From: a virus
Lineage: Duplodnaviria; Heunggongvirae; Uroviricota; Caudoviricetes
IMG/VR virus record: IMGVR_UViG_3300003310_000099
Span: 170,295-234,294 of that record
Reading direction: 5' to 3' (one strand)
DNA: 64,000 bases
This document shows, piece after piece, positions 1,451-31,352 of this stretch (the first letter of the stretch is position 1; each line of letters starts with the position of its first letter). Position numbers and translations under genes: made by a program. The notes below the pieces were generated by a model. The model searched no databases. It saw nothing but the letters and a program-made list of their open reading frames with translations, and was not told the origin of the DNA.

Positions 1451-1644
1451 TGAAAATAGATGCTGAATGCACTTGGGGTGATGGGCCAGATGTTCTACTT
1501 TCCGTCTATAAAGATGGCAAAGTATATGAGCTTTTCGATTTAACTATTGAAGAAGCATTTGATTTGGCTTCCAGGTTGACGATGGCGGCACAATATGCAC
1601 GTCATCATGAAGAAACTGCGGAATGTATGACCCCGAAGCATTAG
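1450..1644 (+). CDS. Hypothetical protein
   Basis: TAATG coupling; the last 16 nt overlap tRNA-Lys. Confidence 0.55.
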   Translation: MKIDAECTWGDGPDVLLSVYKDGKVYELFDLTIEEAFDLASRLTMAAQYARHHEETAECMTPKH

Positions 1645-1700
1645 TGGTGATGCAATAGACTTTTAATCTATTGAATGGAGTTCGACTCTCCACGGGGTCA
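1629..1700 (+). tRNA. tRNA-Lys(UUU), CCA not encoded
   Basis: Acceptor GACCCCG/CGGGGTC, D-stem GCAT/ATGC, anticodon stem ATAGA/TCTAT with loop CT-TTT-AA, T-arm TGGAG-TTCGACT-CTCCA, discriminator A. Confidence 0.92.
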
Positions 1701-1703
1701 TTT

Positions 1704-3498: not shown

Positions 3499-4017
3499 AT
3501 GAAAATTAGAATTATGGGGCAGACAGCTTTGAAGGAATTGATGAAAGCTGAGCCTAAGAAGCACGATGTACTGCATTATACAAATTCTGATGCAGCACCT
3601 ACTCAGGAAGTTAAGGATTTTGCCAATGATTGGTTTCATATCGCAGCAGATGATATAGACCATTATGGTTTTAAGATGCATTTCCCACCAACTGCCAAGA
3701 ACATAGCAGATGCCTTGGATTGGAGTAAGGGTAAGACGGAGCTAGTGGTGGCGTGTCATGCTGGCATTTCTCGTAGTTCAGCAACTGCATACCTTATTGC
3801 TGCCAGAGCATTAGGTTCAGAATGGGCTTTGGACATTCTCAAAAAGGGTTATCATTACCCGAATCGGTTGATTGTTTATATTGGGTCTAAATTGCTCAAG
3901 GATGATAAGATTTGGGAAAGGTTTGTTGGGTGGCAGAAGGAACATAATTACATGGACCCATCGCAAAATAATGCATGGCCAACTCAAGAAGTTAAGTCGC
4001 AAATTTATTGGCCATAA
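3499..4017 (+). CDS. Predicted protein tyrosine / dual-specificity phosphatase
   Basis: CX5R motif CHAGISRSSA; downstream PNRL motif. Confidence 0.85.
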   Translation: MKIRIMGQTALKELMKAEPKKHDVLHYTNSDAAPTQEVKDFANDWFHIAADDIDHYGFKMHFPPTAKNIADALDWSKGKTELVVACHAGISRSSATAYLIAARALGSEWALDILKKGYHYPNRLIVYIGSKLLKDDKIWERFVGWQKEHNYMDPSQNNAWPTQEVKSQIYWP

Positions 4018-4880: not shown

Positions 4881-4909
4881 TTGACATTCTGTTGGTTTTG
4901 TACTATGAT
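4881..4909 (+). promoter_or_regulatory. Sigma70-type promoter upstream of the Pth2-like gene
   Basis: TTGACA-N17-TATGAT, followed by AAAGGAG RBS at about 4915-4921. Confidence 0.75.
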
Positions 4910-4928
4910 ATTGGAAAGGAGCATAAAA

Positions 4929-5261
4929 ATGGAACACTAGGTCACACCTTATCTGTATTGTTTCGTCAGGACAGACCTCTCTCTGCCTCAGCAGATTGTA
5001 CAGGCGTCTCATGCTTGTATAGAAGCCACTAAAGCATTTCTCCCAGAAAATTTAGAGCATCCCCATCTCGTAGTCCTTTCGGTTAAGGACCAGTCTTCAT
5101 TATTTAAAGTTGCAAAAAAACTCGACACTACGGGCGTTCGATATCGTATTTTTATCGAACCCGACCGTGGTGACGAGGCTACCGCGCTTTGTACTGAGGT
5201 CATATCTGGTGACGCTCGCCGCATCTTCAAAAACTATCAATGTATCAAGGAGTCAGCATGA
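4929..5261 (+). CDS. Pth2/PTRHD1-type peptidyl-tRNA hydrolase with in-frame TAG at codon 4 (readthrough gene or pseudogene)
   Basis: ATG GAA CAC TAG, then the open frame VTPYLYCFVRTDLSLPQQIVQASHACIE...HPHLVVLSVKD...FIEPDRGDEATALCT...FKNYQCIKESA*. The YxxVRxDL, QxxHA, VVL and EPD..TA motifs are typical of Pth2-like proteins. The stop overlaps the next ATG (ATGA). Absent from the ORF track. Confidence 0.8.
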
Positions 5262-5719
5262 AACTCTCATCTTATGAGGAGTTCCTTGTCCATGACAAAA
5301 CATGGAATGAGGAAGCTAGAACAGAAGCACTTAATAAATTTCCCTATACAGCAGTTGTAGAAGGATGTTACCCTGCGAACGATGTTGCTTATCGCTGGTG
5401 TTGGCAACAGTTTGGTCCACCAGAATGCAAACAATGTTATGATTATTCATCAGAATATCCAGCTTGCCCGATGGTTCTGGCTATAGAAGAATACATCATT
5501 AAAAAATCCTATACAGACAAAGAAGGCAAAGTTCATGAATATGATTACCATACCAGAGAACCAGAAAAACACGGTCATGAAGGCACCTGGACTACCGTTT
5601 GGCTCGGTAAGACAGGATATGATTATGGATTTACAGAGTATTATTTTTTGAACGAAAGTGACAGAGACAAATTCATAGCCACTGCACCTTCGTTCGATTT
5701 TGGAGAAAATTATGTATAA
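5258..5719 (+). CDS. Hypothetical protein
   Basis: AAGGAG RBS; ATGA-coupled to the Pth2-like gene. Confidence 0.7.
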   Translation: MKLSSYEEFLVHDKTWNEEARTEALNKFPYTAVVEGCYPANDVAYRWCWQQFGPPECKQCYDYSSEYPACPMVLAIEEYIIKKSYTDKEGKVHEYDYHTREPEKHGHEGTWTTVWLGKTGYDYGFTEYYFLNESDRDKFIATAPSFDFGENYV

Positions 5720-7342: not shown

Positions 7343-7561
7343 TTATTCTTTCTTTCGTAGGACATGAATCGTCTTTACTTCATAGCCCAATTTATCTAAT
7401 TCTTGACTAATTTTTGAAATGTCCCCCGTGCCCTGTGCTTTCTTATAAAGCTCTAAAAGTTTATCAGGACTTTTTGCAGCTGGAGGTACAGCAGGGCACA
7501 CTTTATCTATTTCAGTTTTCCCCAATAACCAATTCTTTAATGTCTCATTAATGTATTGCAT
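7343..7561 (-). CDS. Small hypothetical protein, divergent from the J-domain gene
   Basis: 72-aa ORF; ACTATATTTA just upstream on the minus strand. Confidence 0.5.
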
Positions 7562-7579
7562 ATCACTAAATATAGTAGT

Positions 7580-8026
7580 ATGGATTTCTATAAATTACTC
7601 GGCGTTGAAGTCAATGCCACCGAAGAACAGATCAAGCAAGCTTACAGAAAACGAGCGATGGAGAACCACCCAGACCGTAATCCAGGTGATAAAGAAGCTG
7701 AAAATAGATTTAAAGCAATTCAAGAAGCCTATGAGAATCTGATTGATGTTAATAAAAGAGCAAGATATAACGCTAAGGCCCCAACTCCACCTCATAAGAC
7801 CTATCACAAGGCACCACAAAGGAAAAGAGAAATATTTAGTTTCTATGATGCTCCACCTCCAGCTTTTGATATTTGGGGCAATCCACTAAGTAATACACAG
7901 AAAGAAGAATGGGCTAGGAACAACAGAGACAATATTGTTGAGGTACAAAACAAGAAGAAGAGTTTTAATTCTGGATTTGTTGATATATTTAGGTATGAAA
8001 ATGAAGGAGTTCCAGACATTAGATAG
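7580..8026 (+). CDS. J-domain (DnaJ-like) protein
   Basis: [54 protein letters not shown], with the HPD motif. Confidence 0.92.
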
Positions 8027-8630: not shown

Positions 8631-9680
8631 ATGCAGTACAAAGTAACCATAGATTTTTCTTACGATCTTGAATCTGACAAAGATCACGATGAGCTTTTGA
8701 AAAGTCTAGAACAAGAACTCAATGACCTTACCAAAGGTATTGTGCTTAATAAGAGGCAGATTCGTCTCAACAAAATGAAAGCGGTCAAGCATAAGACGAG
8801 AATTGCTACATTTACTCCTGAAGAATTGCTGCCCCAAGTTGTAAAAGAAGGTAAAAAAGAATTTACCATTGATGGCAATGTCTATTCTGTGAGGATGGAC
8901 AGTTCCAGATATTTTGTTTTCAAAAGAAGCCTTGAATGTGTTGCTTGCGGCATTAAAGGCTCCAAGATGATTTTGGAAATCAACCAGCACGACAAGTCAC
9001 CTCATTTCAATTTGTATGCAGAAGAAAACGGTAAGTTGATTTTGATGACAAAGGACCACATCCACCCTAAATCTAAAGGTGGTAAGAACGAAATTGAAAA
9101 CTATGCAACGATGTGTGCAATCTGTAATAATTTAAAAGGTAATGACGAGAGTTTAACGAATGAGAACATTCGTGTTTTAAGAAAAGTTTACAATGAGAAC
9201 AAGAACCTTCCAAGGAAGCAATTCCGTGAATTGTTAGATTTGGAAAAGTCGAAGATTTCCAAAAATCATGTTAAAGTAGTTAGAAAGGTGAAGATGAAGA
9301 AAACAAGAGGCGCAGAGCGTTTAGAACGCATACAAAAAGAAACCAACAAATTACTTTGTCTGGTTGCAAATACTGAAAATGAGGCTATAATAGCACAAAT
9401 CAAGCATCTGATGAAGGTAGTGAATGACTCGGTAGCTGAATGTGAAGAGGAAGTTGTTGTACATACAAAGAGTGAAGACGCTGATACTGGCAGATGGCAC
9501 GTCGTATCTTTAGGGCCAGACGGACAATGCTCTGGTTTCCATGCTTACAAGAATGGAAGGGATACAGTAGTAAAGGATATACTTCAAGCCACAGAGTTTA
9601 TGTCCAAGAAGGATGCCCAAAGAGTTTGTGATTTACTAGGTAAAACTTATTCAGTAGTTGGTTTTCCAGATAAGAGGTAG
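8631..9680 (+). CDS. HNH-domain protein with extra C-terminal region
   Basis: CVAC...MTKDHIHPKSKGG.N.IENY.TMC.ICNNLKG. Confidence 0.8.
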   Translation: MQYKVTIDFSYDLESDKDHDELLKSLEQELNDLTKGIVLNKRQIRLNKMKAVKHKTRIATFTPEELLPQVVKEGKKEFTIDGNVYSVRMDSSRYFVFKRSLECVACGIKGSKMILEINQHDKSPHFNLYAEENGKLILMTKDHIHPKSKGGKNEIENYATMCAICNNLKGNDESLTNENIRVLRKVYNENKNLPRKQFRELLDLEKSKISKNHVKVVRKVKMKKTRGAERLERIQKETNKLLCLVANTENEAIIAQIKHLMKVVNDSVAECEEEVVVHTKSEDADTGRWHVVSLGPDGQCSGFHAYKNGRDTVVKDILQATEFMSKKDAQRVCDLLGKTYSVVGFPDKR

Positions 9681-29407: not shown

Positions 29408-29998
29408 AATAAATATTCCAAGACTCCTAAGCATGATTTAACTGGCAAAAGATTTAATTATTTGGTTGTTGATAAAATGGCTGTAACTAGTAAGTCAACG
29501 GATAAATCATGGAGAGCCATATGCAGATGCGATTGTGGTAGAATTGCCGACGTTAATACAAATTATTTGATGAGAGGATTACGCAAAACATGTGGCAACA
29601 AAGAGTGCCAATATCATCGACAAGATTATAATAATGCAGGGAAAAATAATGTATGCTTCGCTGGGTATGAAGGTATACATGGCTCAAAATGGTCTGGCAT
29701 TAGAGCGGCTGCAAAAAGAAGAGGACTAGCTTTTGAAGTCACTATAAAAGAAGCATGGGAATTATTTGAAAGGCAAAATAGAAAATGCGCATTAACTGAT
29801 TTGGATATTGGTTTTGGTAAAACTTATACTGAAGGCAATACTGCCTCGTTGGATCGGATTGATAGCAGTAAAGGTTATATTTTGGGAAACATACAATGGG
29901 TCCACAAAGATGTAAATAAAATGAAAATGGATATATCAATGCCAAGGTTTTTAGAATTATGCAGATTGGTGGTGACAAATGAACAAAAAACAAATTAG
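29405..29998 (+). CDS. HNH-like homing endonuclease
   Basis: DLTGKRFNYL.V, CRCDCG, KCALT, ASLDRIDSSKGY..GNIQWVHKDVN.MK. Confidence 0.85.
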   Translation: MNKYSKTPKHDLTGKRFNYLVVDKMAVTSKSTDKSWRAICRCDCGRIADVNTNYLMRGLRKTCGNKECQYHRQDYNNAGKNNVCFAGYEGIHGSKWSGIRAAAKRRGLAFEVTIKEAWELFERQNRKCALTDLDIGFGKTYTEGNTASLDRIDSSKGYILGNIQWVHKDVNKMKMDISMPRFLELCRLVVTNEQKTN

Positions 29999-30488: not shown

Positions 30489-31352
30489 ATGAAGGACAGA
30501 ATTAATTCCGAAATCATCACAGCGTTAAAGAACAATCAAGTACCTTGGCAGAAACCGTGGGTTGGATGGGGAGATAACTTAGGCTTTCCCCGCAACATCG
30601 GTTCCAGGCTAAAGTATTTCGGCATTAATTTTGTTCTGTTGCAAATGGCGGCAAAACGTCATGGCTTTAAGAGCAAGTGGTGGGGAACAGCACACGATTT
30701 TAAGGCTTTTGGCTATAAAATTGCTGAACGTCCACCACATGTTGAAGTGGGCTGCTGGGGCACCGTAATAGTTTCTTACAAAATTAAAGAACTAAAAGTA
30801 GAAGCTATCCCTGAGATTGTATACAATGCAGATCAACTTAGTGTGCCTTTTGATGCATGTGTGGCTAAGGCGAAGTTAAAGGTTGATTACGAGTTTGGGG
30901 ATAAAGTTCTGAGTAAGGTTCCTGTGGAAGTAAAGCTTAATGAGGAAGGAAAAGCTTTATATTACTATCCACCACAAGACTATATTACAATGCCATCCAA
31001 AATTGATTTTGAGATGGGCATAAATGGTCTGCCAGCTTATTACGAATGCTTAGCTCATGAATTAATGCACTATACTGAAACAAGGTTAAACTTCAAGACT
31101 GAGTATGAGGCTATTCGTGAGTTAAGGGCAGAGATTGGGGCGGCGATGCTGATGCAGGAGTTAAGGCTACCACACAGCATTACTTTATCTAATTTCAGGA
31201 AGTGGTCTGAAATCTGGGTTAATTTCATGACAAATACACCTAATTTAATTTTCAGGCTTACCGCTTCGGCATCAAGGGCAGTGGACTATATCCTTTCTTT
31301 CAGTGATTTAGATGAAGAAAGGTTCAATGAAGTCAGTGAAAATGTAGCTTAG
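30489..31352 (+). CDS. ardC: ArdC-like antirestriction / ssDNA-binding protein with zincin-like domain
   Basis: VPWQKPW, P.N..S...Y.GIN..LL, W.T, VYNADQ, YY.P..D.I.MP, AHELMH.T, EL.AEIGAA.L. Confidence 0.8.
   Translation: MKDRINSEIITALKNNQVPWQKPWVGWGDNLGFPRNIGSRLKYFGINFVLLQMAAKRHGFKSKWWGTAHDFKAFGYKIAERPPHVEVGCWGTVIVSYKIKELKVEAIPEIVYNADQLSVPFDACVAKAKLKVDYEFGDKVLSKVPVEVKLNEEGKALYYYPPQDYITMPSKIDFEMGINGLPAYYECLAHELMHYTETRLNFKTEYEAIRELRAEIGAAMLMQELRLPHSITLSNFRKWSEIWVNFMTNTPNLIFRLTASASRAVDYILSFSDLDEERFNEVSENVA

What the first reader, a model, noticed from the sequence alone, without database searches (positions are those of the whole stretch)
4881..5261. Peptidyl-tRNA hydrolase gated by an amber stop at codon 4: candidate termination-sensing readthrough switch
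Seen: a sigma70 promoter and AAAGGAG RBS precede ATG GAA CAC TAG (4929-4940). Then 106 open codons encode a complete Pth2-like fold (YCFVRTDL, QASHA, HLVVLSV, FIEPD..ATALC) ending in an ATGA overlap with the next gene. There is no in-frame ATG/GTG/TTG after the TAG, and no other lesion. TAG is a normal stop elsewhere in this window. A weak stem (AGGTC/GACCT, 4939-4978) overlaps the stop. Established: Pth recycles dropped-off peptidyl-tRNA; very short minigenes (lambda bar) promote drop-off; prfB is autoregulated through an internal stop. Inference: the MEH* minigene reports RF1 or termination efficiency (or a suppressor tRNA), so the hydrolase is made only when UAG termination fails, for example under host defence or translation stress. 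Gene callers miss this gene completely.
Basis: partly seen in the sequence, partly recalled or inferred. Interest (0 to 1): 0.88.

Follow-up and report, generated by a model that had tools for sequence, protein, structure and literature searches.

The report
Suppressor-tRNA-gated phage Pth2-like gene
A giant phage that otherwise uses the normal genetic code keeps a UAG stop as the fourth codon of a small tRNA-hydrolase-like gene and carries its own UAG-reading tRNA, a pairing shared by about a hundred distant phages, so the enzyme is probably made only when that tRNA overrides the stop.

Summary
ATG GAA CAC TAG (4929-4940) sits behind a consensus promoter and an AAAGGAG ribosome-binding site. 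It is followed by 106 open codons with no canonical start. These fold as a Pth2-type peptidyl-tRNA hydrolase (pLDDT 96).

The stop is neither damage nor an error. Of 139 distinct homologous loci, 98 have a short leader (ATG, or GTG once, plus 0-7 codons) and then an in-frame stop, with no other usable start; 97 of these stops are TAG. Frames after the stop are under purifying selection (dN/dS 0.06-0.3).

The window's 373-kb phage genome encodes a well-formed tRNA(CUA) 7.6 kb upstream on the same strand. In 33 of 42 well-flanked gated loci a matching suppressor tRNA lies nearby, often as the only tRNA. Two TGA variants each sit beside a tRNA(UCA). The base after the gate stop is a purine in 61 of 63 representatives.

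The best reading is readthrough that depends on the phage's own suppressor tRNA. Why this divergent paralogue is coupled to the tRNA is inferred only.

This scan has noted the same module on other genomes. I found no published description.

The parts
4881..4909 (+). sigma-70-like promoter TTGACA-17 nt-TATGAT
   Evidence: 11 of 12 consensus positions. This is a consensus match only; function was not shown.
4915..4921 (+). Shine-Dalgarno AAAGGAG, 7 nt before the ATG
   Evidence: Homologues also place a GGAG-like box before the leader ATG, not before any codon after the stop.
4929..4940 (+). leader ATG GAA CAC followed by the gate codon TAG (4938-4940), in frame with the hydrolase
   Evidence: The closest relatives carry ATG-NNN-CAC-TAG at the same place (L001, L085-L089).
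4941..5261 (+). 106 codons of a divergent Pth2-like hydrolase plus its TGA stop; full product predicted as M-E-H-X-V-T-P-Y... (110 aa)
   Evidence: Pfam PTH2 28.7 bits. PDB profile hit 2zv3, E = 1.4e-7. AlphaFold2 pLDDT 96. The top 11 Foldseek hits are all Pth2-family structures, TM 0.68-0.77. dN/dS is about 0.1 against L001.
5258..5719 (+). next gene (153 aa, no family); its ATG overlaps the hydrolase stop (ATGA) and AAGGAG lies 3 nt upstream
1628..1701 (+). tRNA-Lys(UUU), the only tRNA inside the window. The partner tRNA(CUA) lies outside the window at G000:C1:167508-167580 (+), which is 2.7 kb before window base 1 and 7.6 kb before the gene.
   Evidence: for tRNA-Lys. Searches (ARAGORN; Rfam tRNA, 66 bits against a gathering score of 29) for the tRNA(CUA).

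Best explanation
The gene at 4929-5261 is an intact, expressed gene for a divergent Pth2-fold hydrolase. Its translation is gated by the UAG at codon 4.

Proposed mechanism:
- Ribosomes start at the ATG behind the AAAGGAG box and make Met-Glu-His.
- At the UAG, either RF1 terminates, giving a 3-residue peptide and no enzyme, or the phage's own amber suppressor tRNA(CUA) inserts an amino acid and the 110-residue enzyme is made.
- The gate therefore acts as an AND gate: transcription of the gene plus a matured, charged phage suppressor tRNA.
- The position right after the start codon and the purine after the stop fit a site selected for efficient suppression with minimal waste.

What is shown: the anatomy, the conservation, purifying selection, the physical linkage to suppressor tRNAs and the stop-anticodon covariation.

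What is inferred:
- That the tRNA is made and charged.
- Which residue is inserted.
- Why the coupling exists. My preferred reading (about 35%) is that this specialised paralogue works on the suppressor-tRNA pathway, clearing peptidyl- or acyl-tRNA by-products of suppression, so its dose is tied to suppressor activity.
- Alternatives for the coupling are negative feedback on suppression (about 25%) and a leak-proof timer for a harmful enzyme (about 25%).
For: Conservation of the gate:
- of 139 distinct homologous loci (cultured phages, IMG/VR and metagenomes), 94 have ATG plus 0-6 codons plus a stop and no canonical start before the conserved core; 93 of these stops are TAG.
- Four more have TAG after a 7-codon leader or after a GTG start.
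- Fourteen more have the leader-stop plus a nearby downstream start.
- Twenty-six have an ordinary start. Of the 22 loci whose upstream in-frame stop is TGA or TAA, 18 are of this ordinary-start kind.
- Fisher p = 5e-13 for TAG versus a leader ORF (counts are not phylogenetically independent).

Selection:
- dN/dS is 0.06-0.3 in frames downstream of the stop.

The suppressor tRNA:
- the window's own genome carries a tRNA(CUA) scoring 66 bits with the Rfam tRNA model.
- the closest relative, LR756511, has a 95% identical tRNA about 8 kb from its gene, in the same layout.
- 33 of 42 gated loci with at least 3 kb of flank hold a tRNA(CUA). Nearly all are on the same strand, and it is often the sole tRNA.
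- 6 of 7 loci from genome contigs show the same.

Covariation:
- the TGA variants L036 and L158 each have a tRNA(UCA) 14-190 nt upstream.
- L036 and L158 lie in different halves of the family tree.
- p = 0.0013.

Context of the stop:
- the base after the gate stop is A or G in 61 of 63 representatives and never T, against 51% purine at true TAG terminators in the same loci (p = 8e-16).
- From memory, not checked here: a 3' purine favours amber suppression in E. coli (Bossi; Miller and Albertini).

Other points:
- RaK2 has a plain ATG and no suppressor among the 8 tRNAs of its 35-kb tRNA region.
- the genome also has a canonical Pth2 with a plain ATG (115 bits), so the gated gene is a specialised paralogue.
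- the XacN1 and RsoM2USA papers report CUA suppressor tRNAs. The XacN1 authors could not identify any target genes; the RsoM2USA paper names none.
Against: - Nothing here is experimental. Expression, charging and amino-acid identity of the tRNA are unknown.
- In this genome the tRNA is 7.6 kb away, not adjacent.
- 9 of 42 well-flanked gated loci show no suppressor tRNA within 5-10 kb. Whole genomes were not scanned for these.
- TAG ends 17% of this phage's long ORFs, so strong suppression should be costly to the phage itself.
- Some plain-start homologues also sit beside suppressor tRNAs (L015, L053, L054, L082), so the tRNA-enzyme link is wider than the gate.
- The enzyme lacks the Lys-bearing loop of canonical Pth2, so its substrate is uncertain.
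Confidence: 0.8

Rival explanations
1. One reading: a termination-efficiency (RF1) sensor. The MEH* minigene is read through by near-cognate host tRNAs only when RF1-mediated termination fails, with no need for a dedicated suppressor tRNA.
For: - The stop lies in a very short ORF. From memory of the lambda bar and minigene literature, termination is inefficient there and peptidyl-tRNA drop-off is frequent.
- 9 of 42 gated loci lack a visible suppressor within the flanks.
- Readthrough by a suppressor necessarily competes with RF1, so RF1 level should modulate output in any case.
Against: - The gate stop is tightly linked to suppressor tRNAs of matching anticodon, and TGA pairs with UCA. An RF-only sensor needs neither.
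- The genome carries its own tRNA(CUA).
- The near-exclusive use of TAG is explained by the tRNA.
Confidence: 0.08
2. Translation starts after the stop, either at a non-canonical codon or by termination-reinitiation after the three-codon upstream ORF. The TAG then merely ends a regulatory leader.
For: - In the HD-fusion (XacN1-type) clade an ATG lies 4 codons after the stop.
- The codon after the stop is ATT or ATC in 17 of 63 representatives. AUU is a rare bacterial start codon.
Against: - Most loci have no start-like codon after the stop: GTT, GTA, AAC, ACT and GAC occur there.
- In the window the first codons after the stop are GTC ACA CCT TAT CTG.
- The leader is always in frame with the enzyme, which reinitiation does not require.
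- The Shine-Dalgarno box is spaced for the leader ATG.
- This reading gives no reason for linkage to, or covariation with, suppressor tRNAs.
Confidence: 0.05
3. A dead gene or an assembly error: the TAG is a recent nonsense mutation or a miscalled base.
For: This is a single metagenomic assembly. Reads were not available to me.
Against: - The same CAC-TAG is found in six independent relatives at 57-66% amino-acid identity, and the leader-stop in about 100 distinct loci.
- dN/dS is about 0.1.
- The family's conserved residues are retained (invariant R10, Q21, H24 and A25 in the 54-sequence alignment).
- The predicted fold has pLDDT 96.
Confidence: 0.01
4. Genome-wide reassignment of TAG to an amino acid, as in code-15 phages; this gene would be just one of many carrying in-frame TAG.
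For: The genome encodes a tRNA(CUA).
Against: - TAG terminates 71 of 419 long ORFs.
- The hydrolase is the only ATG-x-TAG frame with a Shine-Dalgarno box and no other start.
- A crude coding-potential scan found no excess of TAG-interrupted frames over TAA or TGA controls.
- The XacN1 authors found nothing behind 18 amber stops.
Confidence: 0.03

Closest known systems
Stop-codon recoding in phages with phage-encoded suppressor tRNAs (TAG read as Gln, 'code 15'; Borges et al., bioRxiv 10.1101/2021.08.26.457843)
   Same: A phage-encoded tRNA(CUA) decodes in-frame TAG in phage genes while the host uses the standard code. The arrangement has been proposed to act as a translational switch.
   Different: Here the genome keeps TAG as an ordinary terminator (17% of long ORFs). 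Only one gene is gated, always of the same family, and the stop sits within 0-7 codons of the start. That preprint never mentions peptidyl-tRNA hydrolase (0 occurrences).
prfB (RF2) autoregulation through an in-frame UGA
   Same: An early in-frame stop in a translation-factor gene makes output depend on how that very stop is read.
   Different: prfB needs a +1 frameshift and senses its own product. Whether the enzyme feeds back on suppression is unknown.
Lambda bar and other minigenes, and their link to Pth
   Same: A 2-4 codon ORF behind a strong Shine-Dalgarno box; a historical link between minigenes, peptidyl-tRNA drop-off and Pth (from memory).
   Different: bar minigenes are stand-alone and toxic in pth-limited hosts. 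Here the mini-ORF is always in frame with, and serves as the start of, a conserved enzyme.
Synthetic 'leak dampener': a suppressor-tRNA feed-forward loop with silent nonsense codons (Ho et al., NAR 2021, PMC7969014)
   Same: The circuit logic is the same: a gene carrying early amber or opal codons is made only when a co-regulated suppressor tRNA is present, which gives a tight OFF state.
   Different: That system is engineered. This one is natural, conserved and tied to one enzyme family.
Archaeal and eukaryotic Pth2 (PF01981; PDB 2zv3, 3erj, 1wn2, 1q7s, 1xty)
   Same: The fold and the R-x-D-L, Q-x-x-H-A and T-A motifs.
   Different: A two-residue deletion removes the Lys-bearing loop, and E-P-D replaces T-D-A-G. 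The phage also has a canonical Pth2.

Membership tests
Pth2 peptidyl-tRNA hydrolase (Pfam PF01981) | Sequence match above the curated cut-off | tested here: met
   28.7 bits against a cut-off of 23. The family profile hits PDB 2zv3 at E = 1.4e-7.
Pth2 peptidyl-tRNA hydrolase (Pfam PF01981) | Pth2 alpha/beta fold | tested here: met
   The AlphaFold2 model has pLDDT 96 and pTM 0.88. The top 11 Foldseek PDB hits are all Pth2-family structures, TM 0.68-0.77.
Pth2 peptidyl-tRNA hydrolase (Pfam PF01981) | Catalytic Lys in the G-K-G-K loop after R-x-D-L (its role recalled from the S. solfataricus Pth2 literature, not checked here) | tested here: not met
   The alignments to 2zv3 and to the phage's own canonical Pth2 show a 2-residue deletion and no Lys: DLS--LPQQ against DLKMRRGKE.
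Pth2 peptidyl-tRNA hydrolase (Pfam PF01981) | Catalytic Asp of the D-A-G motif | tested here: inconclusive
   It aligns with the near-invariant E73; D75 is also near-invariant. An acidic residue is kept but not the same one.
Pth2 peptidyl-tRNA hydrolase (Pfam PF01981) | Hydrolysis of peptidyl- or N-acyl-aminoacyl-tRNA | not testable with these tools
   This needs an enzyme assay.
Code-15-type recoded phage | Phage-encoded suppressor tRNA matching the in-frame stop | tested here: met
   tRNA(CUA) at G000:C1:167508-167580.
Code-15-type recoded phage | Many genes with in-frame TAG, and TAG rare as a terminator | tested here: not met
   TAG ends 71 of 419 long ORFs. One gated gene was found.
prfB-like autoregulatory recoding | The product acts on decoding of the stop inside its own gene | not testable with these tools
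   Only the linkage of the enzyme family to suppressor tRNAs is shown.
prfB-like autoregulatory recoding | A frameshift is required to pass the stop | tested here: not met
   The enzyme is in the zero frame in all loci.
Lambda bar-type minigene | A stand-alone 2-4 codon ORF whose effect does not depend on downstream coding | tested here: not met
   The leader is always in frame with the conserved enzyme, and most loci offer no other start.

The most novel reading that the evidence does not exclude
The suppressor tRNA and the gated Pth2-like enzyme form a self-contained feedback circuit. The enzyme would act specifically on the acyl- or peptidyl- form of the suppressor tRNA, so that the level of stop-codon readthrough in the infected cell sets, and is set by, the enzyme. 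That would be a tRNA-based counterpart of prfB autoregulation, letting a standard-code phage run a controlled pulse of amber suppression.
Probability: 0.2. Interest if true: 0.9.

Novelty: new variant of a known kind. Interest (0 to 1): 0.8.

Why it matters
- It gives a concrete, conserved target for the orphan suppressor tRNAs of standard-code jumbo phages. The XacN1 authors stated they could find none.
- It describes a natural version of a circuit that synthetic biologists built independently.
- It exposes a systematic annotation gap: the gene is missing or truncated in GenBank records of GAP32, BF, fHe-Yen9-04, RsoM2USA and Arash.
- Several carriers are cultured on tractable hosts (Cronobacter, Serratia, Acinetobacter, Salmonella, Ralstonia, Xanthomonas). 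The switch, the inserted residue and the enzyme's substrate are therefore directly testable.
- The results bear on how stop-codon reassignment begins in phages.

Tried and rejected
- The proposed RNA stem around the stop has z = +0.9 against shuffles. Rejected.
- Megablast of the region against phage records found no match.
- Pfam on the flanking genes and on the N-terminal domains of fused homologues gave nothing informative. This includes the XacN1-type domain with an H-D-like motif.
- A search for other gated genes in this genome found none convincing:
  - The ATG-(0-4 codons)-stop scan returned only the hydrolase with a Shine-Dalgarno box and no start.
  - A crude codon-usage scan gave one TAG-split candidate at G000:C1:124585-125280 (-). 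Its translation looks like antisense noise. That scan was too blunt to recover the hydrolase itself at its threshold.
- No RF-1-domain gene (release factor or ArfB) is present in the genome.
- The identity of the suppressor tRNA could not be assigned:
  - Its best intragenomic match is tRNA-Asn at 71%.
  - The linked suppressors of other loci are heterogeneous, and all but one are class I in length (70-80 nt).
I repeated it with the 10-sequence alignment.
- Four literature searches found no description of the natural module.

Full report
**1. The observation**

The window reads ...TTGACA (4881)-17 nt-TATGAT (4909)...AAAGGAG (4915-4921)-7 nt-ATG GAA CAC TAG (4929-4940) GTC ACA CCT TAT CTG TAT TGT TTC GTC AGG ACA GAC CTC....

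- The promoter match is 11 of 12 positions.
- After the TAG, 106 codons stay open to the TGA at 5259-5261. That stop overlaps the ATG of the next gene.
- No ATG, GTG or TTG occurs in frame after the TAG.
- The 106-residue frame passes Pfam PTH2 (28.7 bits, cut-off 23).
- The proposed stem is no better than shuffled sequence (z = +0.9).

**2. The genome**

- The window is bases 170295-234294 of a single 373,404-bp virus record with 41% G+C.
- The record has 58 tRNA genes.
- TAG ends 71 of 419 long ORFs, so the standard code is in use.
- One tRNA has the anticodon CUA. It lies at 167508-167580 on the same strand, 7.6 kb upstream of the gene.
- It is a well-formed class I tRNA with a G1-C72 acceptor stem, discriminator G and no encoded CCA. 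It scores 66 bits with the Rfam tRNA model against a gathering score of 29.
- The genome has no release-factor-domain gene.
- It does have a second, canonical Pth2 with a plain ATG at 100159-100515 (-), scoring 115 bits.

**3. Relatives in phage records**

tblastn of the 106-residue frame against phage records found 38 records, nearly all jumbo phages.

- In several records nothing is annotated under the match, or only a truncated CDS.
- Reading the DNA gave the reason:

| Phage | N-terminal reading |
|---|---|
| Uncultured phage LR756511 | M-T-H-* |
| Serratia phage BF | M-T-H-* |
| Yersinia phage fHe-Yen9-04 | M-S-H-* |
| Cronobacter phage GAP32 | M-A-Q-* |
| Acinetobacter phage ME3 | M-T-* |
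| Ralstonia phage RsoM2USA | M-L-* |
| Salmonella phage Arash | M-L-* |
| Xanthomonas phage XacN1 | M-K-*, before a fused 283-codon frame |
| Klebsiella phage RaK2 | plain ATG |

- The stop is TAG in every case, and it is always in frame with the conserved core.

**4. Wider survey**

I scanned IMG/VR (74 loci), metagenomes (80 loci) and genome contigs (7 loci). The first two sets, the nine phage-record loci and the window's own locus gave 164 loci, of which 139 are distinct. The seven genome-contig loci were examined separately.

| Class | Distinct loci |
|---|---|
| ATG + 0-6 codons + stop, no canonical start before the core | 94 (93 TAG, 1 TGA) |
| TAG after a 7-codon leader or after a GTG start | 4 |
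| Leader-stop plus a nearby downstream start | 14 |
| Ordinary start | 26 |
| Cut off at a contig end | 1 |

- Of the 22 loci whose upstream in-frame stop is TGA or TAA, 18 are of the ordinary-start kind.
- The association between TAG and a leader ORF gives Fisher p = 5e-13. These counts are not phylogenetically independent.
- All seven loci from genome contigs are TAG-gated.
- On a quick tree the gated state occupies both halves. Ordinary starts are scattered among gated forms, and well-supported branches force at least 4 changes.
- The tree has few columns for its 98 rows and many unresolved forks.

**5. Not a pseudogene**

- dN/dS between pairs of TAG-bearing genes is 0.06-0.3. For the window against LR756511 it is about 0.1, with dS near saturation.
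- R10, Q21, H24 and A25 are invariant in the 54-sequence alignment. In the 10-sequence alignment Y6, D12, E28, E73, T81 and A82 are invariant as well; in the 54-sequence alignment these, with D75, are at least 90% conserved.
- The AlphaFold2 model has pLDDT 96.
- The top 11 Foldseek hits in the PDB are all Pth2-family structures, TM 0.68-0.77.

**6.

- Of 42 gated loci with at least 3 kb on both sides, 33 hold a tRNA(CUA). Nearly all are on the same strand, often within a few hundred bases, and often it is the only tRNA present.
- 6 of the 7 genome-contig loci show the same arrangement.
- LR756511, the closest relative, has a 95% identical tRNA about 8 kb from its gene, as in the window's genome.
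- The cultured phages GAP32, CBB, BF, fHe-Yen9-04 and ME3 all show the tRNA(CUA) within 4 kb.
- The XacN1 and RsoM2USA papers report CUA suppressor tRNAs. The XacN1 authors could not identify target genes after reading through 18 amber stops; the RsoM2USA paper names none.
- RaK2 has the plain-ATG form and no suppressor among the 8 tRNAs of its 35-kb tRNA region.

Covariation is the most telling point.

- Locus L036 has AGGAGG-ATG GTC TTC ACG TGA, with a tRNA(UCA) ending 14 nt before the ATG.
- Locus L158 has ATG GAA TCG TGA, with a tRNA(UCA) 190 nt upstream.
- The two lie in different halves of the tree.
- Stop type against anticodon gives p = 0.0013.

**7. Context of the gate stop**

- In 63 representatives below 80% identity, the base after the stop is A in 31, G in 30, C in 2 and T in none.
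- True TAG terminators of long ORFs in the same loci have 51% purine at that position (p = 8e-16).
- From memory of classical E. coli work, a 3' purine favours suppression and a 3' U favours termination.
- The codon before the stop is mostly His CAC, Thr ACN or Leu.
- In leaders of two or more codons the residue before that is Phe in 12 of 26 cases. I have no explanation for the Phe.

**8. What it is and how it likely works**

- The simplest account of all this is a gene that is translated only when the phage's own suppressor tRNA reads the early stop.
It does not explain the tRNA linkage or the covariation.
- Reinitiation or a non-canonical start is unlikely. Most loci offer no start-like codon, the frame is always kept and the Shine-Dalgarno box serves the leader ATG.
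- Genome-wide recoding is excluded for this genome.

**9. Why the coupling exists (inference only)**

- The gated protein is a divergent paralogue of Pth2.
- Against both PDB 2zv3 and the phage's own canonical Pth2 it has a two-residue deletion that removes the Lys-bearing loop. It also has E-P-D where Pth2 has T-D-A-G.
- Plain-start members also sit next to suppressor tRNAs: L015, L053, L054 and L082. The functional tie is therefore between the enzyme and the tRNA, not merely a timing trick.
- Constitutive co-expression would be pointless if the enzyme simply destroyed suppressor function.
- I therefore lean, weakly, towards the enzyme handling by-products of suppression with its dose tied to suppressor activity (about 35%).
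- The alternatives are negative feedback (about 25%) and a leak-proof timer (about 25%).

**10. Prior knowledge**

- Four full-text searches found no description of this natural module.
- Iyer et al. note PTH2 in jumbo phages, but their paper does not contain the term 'stop codon' or 'suppressor'.
- A synthetic circuit with the same logic exists.
- This scan has already recorded the same module on at least 88 other genomes. Those notes agree with what I found independently here, including the covariation and the HD-domain fusions.
- A later check on one of those notes put the bold feedback reading at about 20/100, which matches my own estimate.

**11. Verdict**

The feature is a new variant of suppressor-tRNA recoding: a single-gene, start-proximal gate in standard-code phages. 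It is conserved, appears undescribed in the literature, and is directly testable in cultured phages.

Noticed in passing
G000:C1:100159-100515 (-), outside the window (locus L165 1498-1866): The same phage carries a canonical Pth2: 122 aa, 115 bits, plain ATG, with an intact K-x-x-G-K loop and T-D-A-G motif. The gated gene is therefore a second, divergent paralogue.
   Followed up: partly
G000:C1:27104-92121 and scattered: The genome has 58 tRNA genes, most in a cluster between 27 and 92 kb. ARAGORN found no tRNA-Tyr or tRNA-Ser. One odd 94-nt call lies at 305860-305953.
   Followed up: no
leaders of L034, L036, L091, L092, L096-L098, L112, L116, L120, L135, L136, L140, L142, L146, L167-L169, L171, L172: Leaders of two or more sense codons very often end in Phe-X-stop (F-T, F-H, F-R, F-A, F-P, F-G, F-M). 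Plain-start homologues lack this, so it looks like a translational context signal and not part of the enzyme. I have no explanation for it.
   Followed up: partly
L005 (XacN1 ORF364), L013, L034, L114, L125, L160: In one clade the Pth2-like domain is fused behind a ~180-residue domain with an H-D-like motif (WHDIGKP). Each has a leader-stop (TAG; TAA in L125) and then an ATG 4 codons later, so both gated and ungated starts are possible. Pfam gave no hit for the N-terminal domain of L005, the one tested.
   Followed up: partly
GenBank records JN882285 (GAP32_397), OQ632216 (Arash gp84c), KU935715 (ME3_195), KY630187, LT960551, MG752970: The gene is annotated from an internal TTG or GTG (truncated) in three records and not annotated at all in three. 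This is a systematic annotation gap caused by the early TAG.
   Followed up: yes
L016, L017, L023, L026, L044, L058, L081: Some loci carry two or three different tRNA(CUA) genes in tandem, with different acceptor stems and discriminator bases. This suggests several charging identities.
   Followed up: no
L030 8764-8839; L066 and L079 (~90-nt calls): tRNA(UUA) ochre-suppressor-like genes lie near plain-start homologues. L125 has a TAA leader-stop, but its short contig holds no tRNA.
   Followed up: no
L174 (RaK2) 29650-29736 and 30542-30617: Two annotated pseudo 'tRNA-OTHER' features in RaK2. The second contains ...ATCTAAG... and could be a decayed suppressor tRNA. ARAGORN does not call either.
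   Followed up: partly
window 3499-4017, 7556-8026, 8631-9680: Neighbouring genes include a dual-specificity-phosphatase-like protein (27.5 bits, below the 33.5 cut-off), a DnaJ-domain protein (87 bits) and an HNH endonuclease.
   Followed up: no
L167-L169, L171, L172: The nearest cellular-bin homologues (41-52% identity) are in Planctomycetes MAGs (Gemmataceae, Pirellulaceae, Phycisphaerales). One lies on a 1.6-Mb contig. This may hint at the host range of this phage group, or at prophage or cellular copies of the cassette.
   Followed up: no
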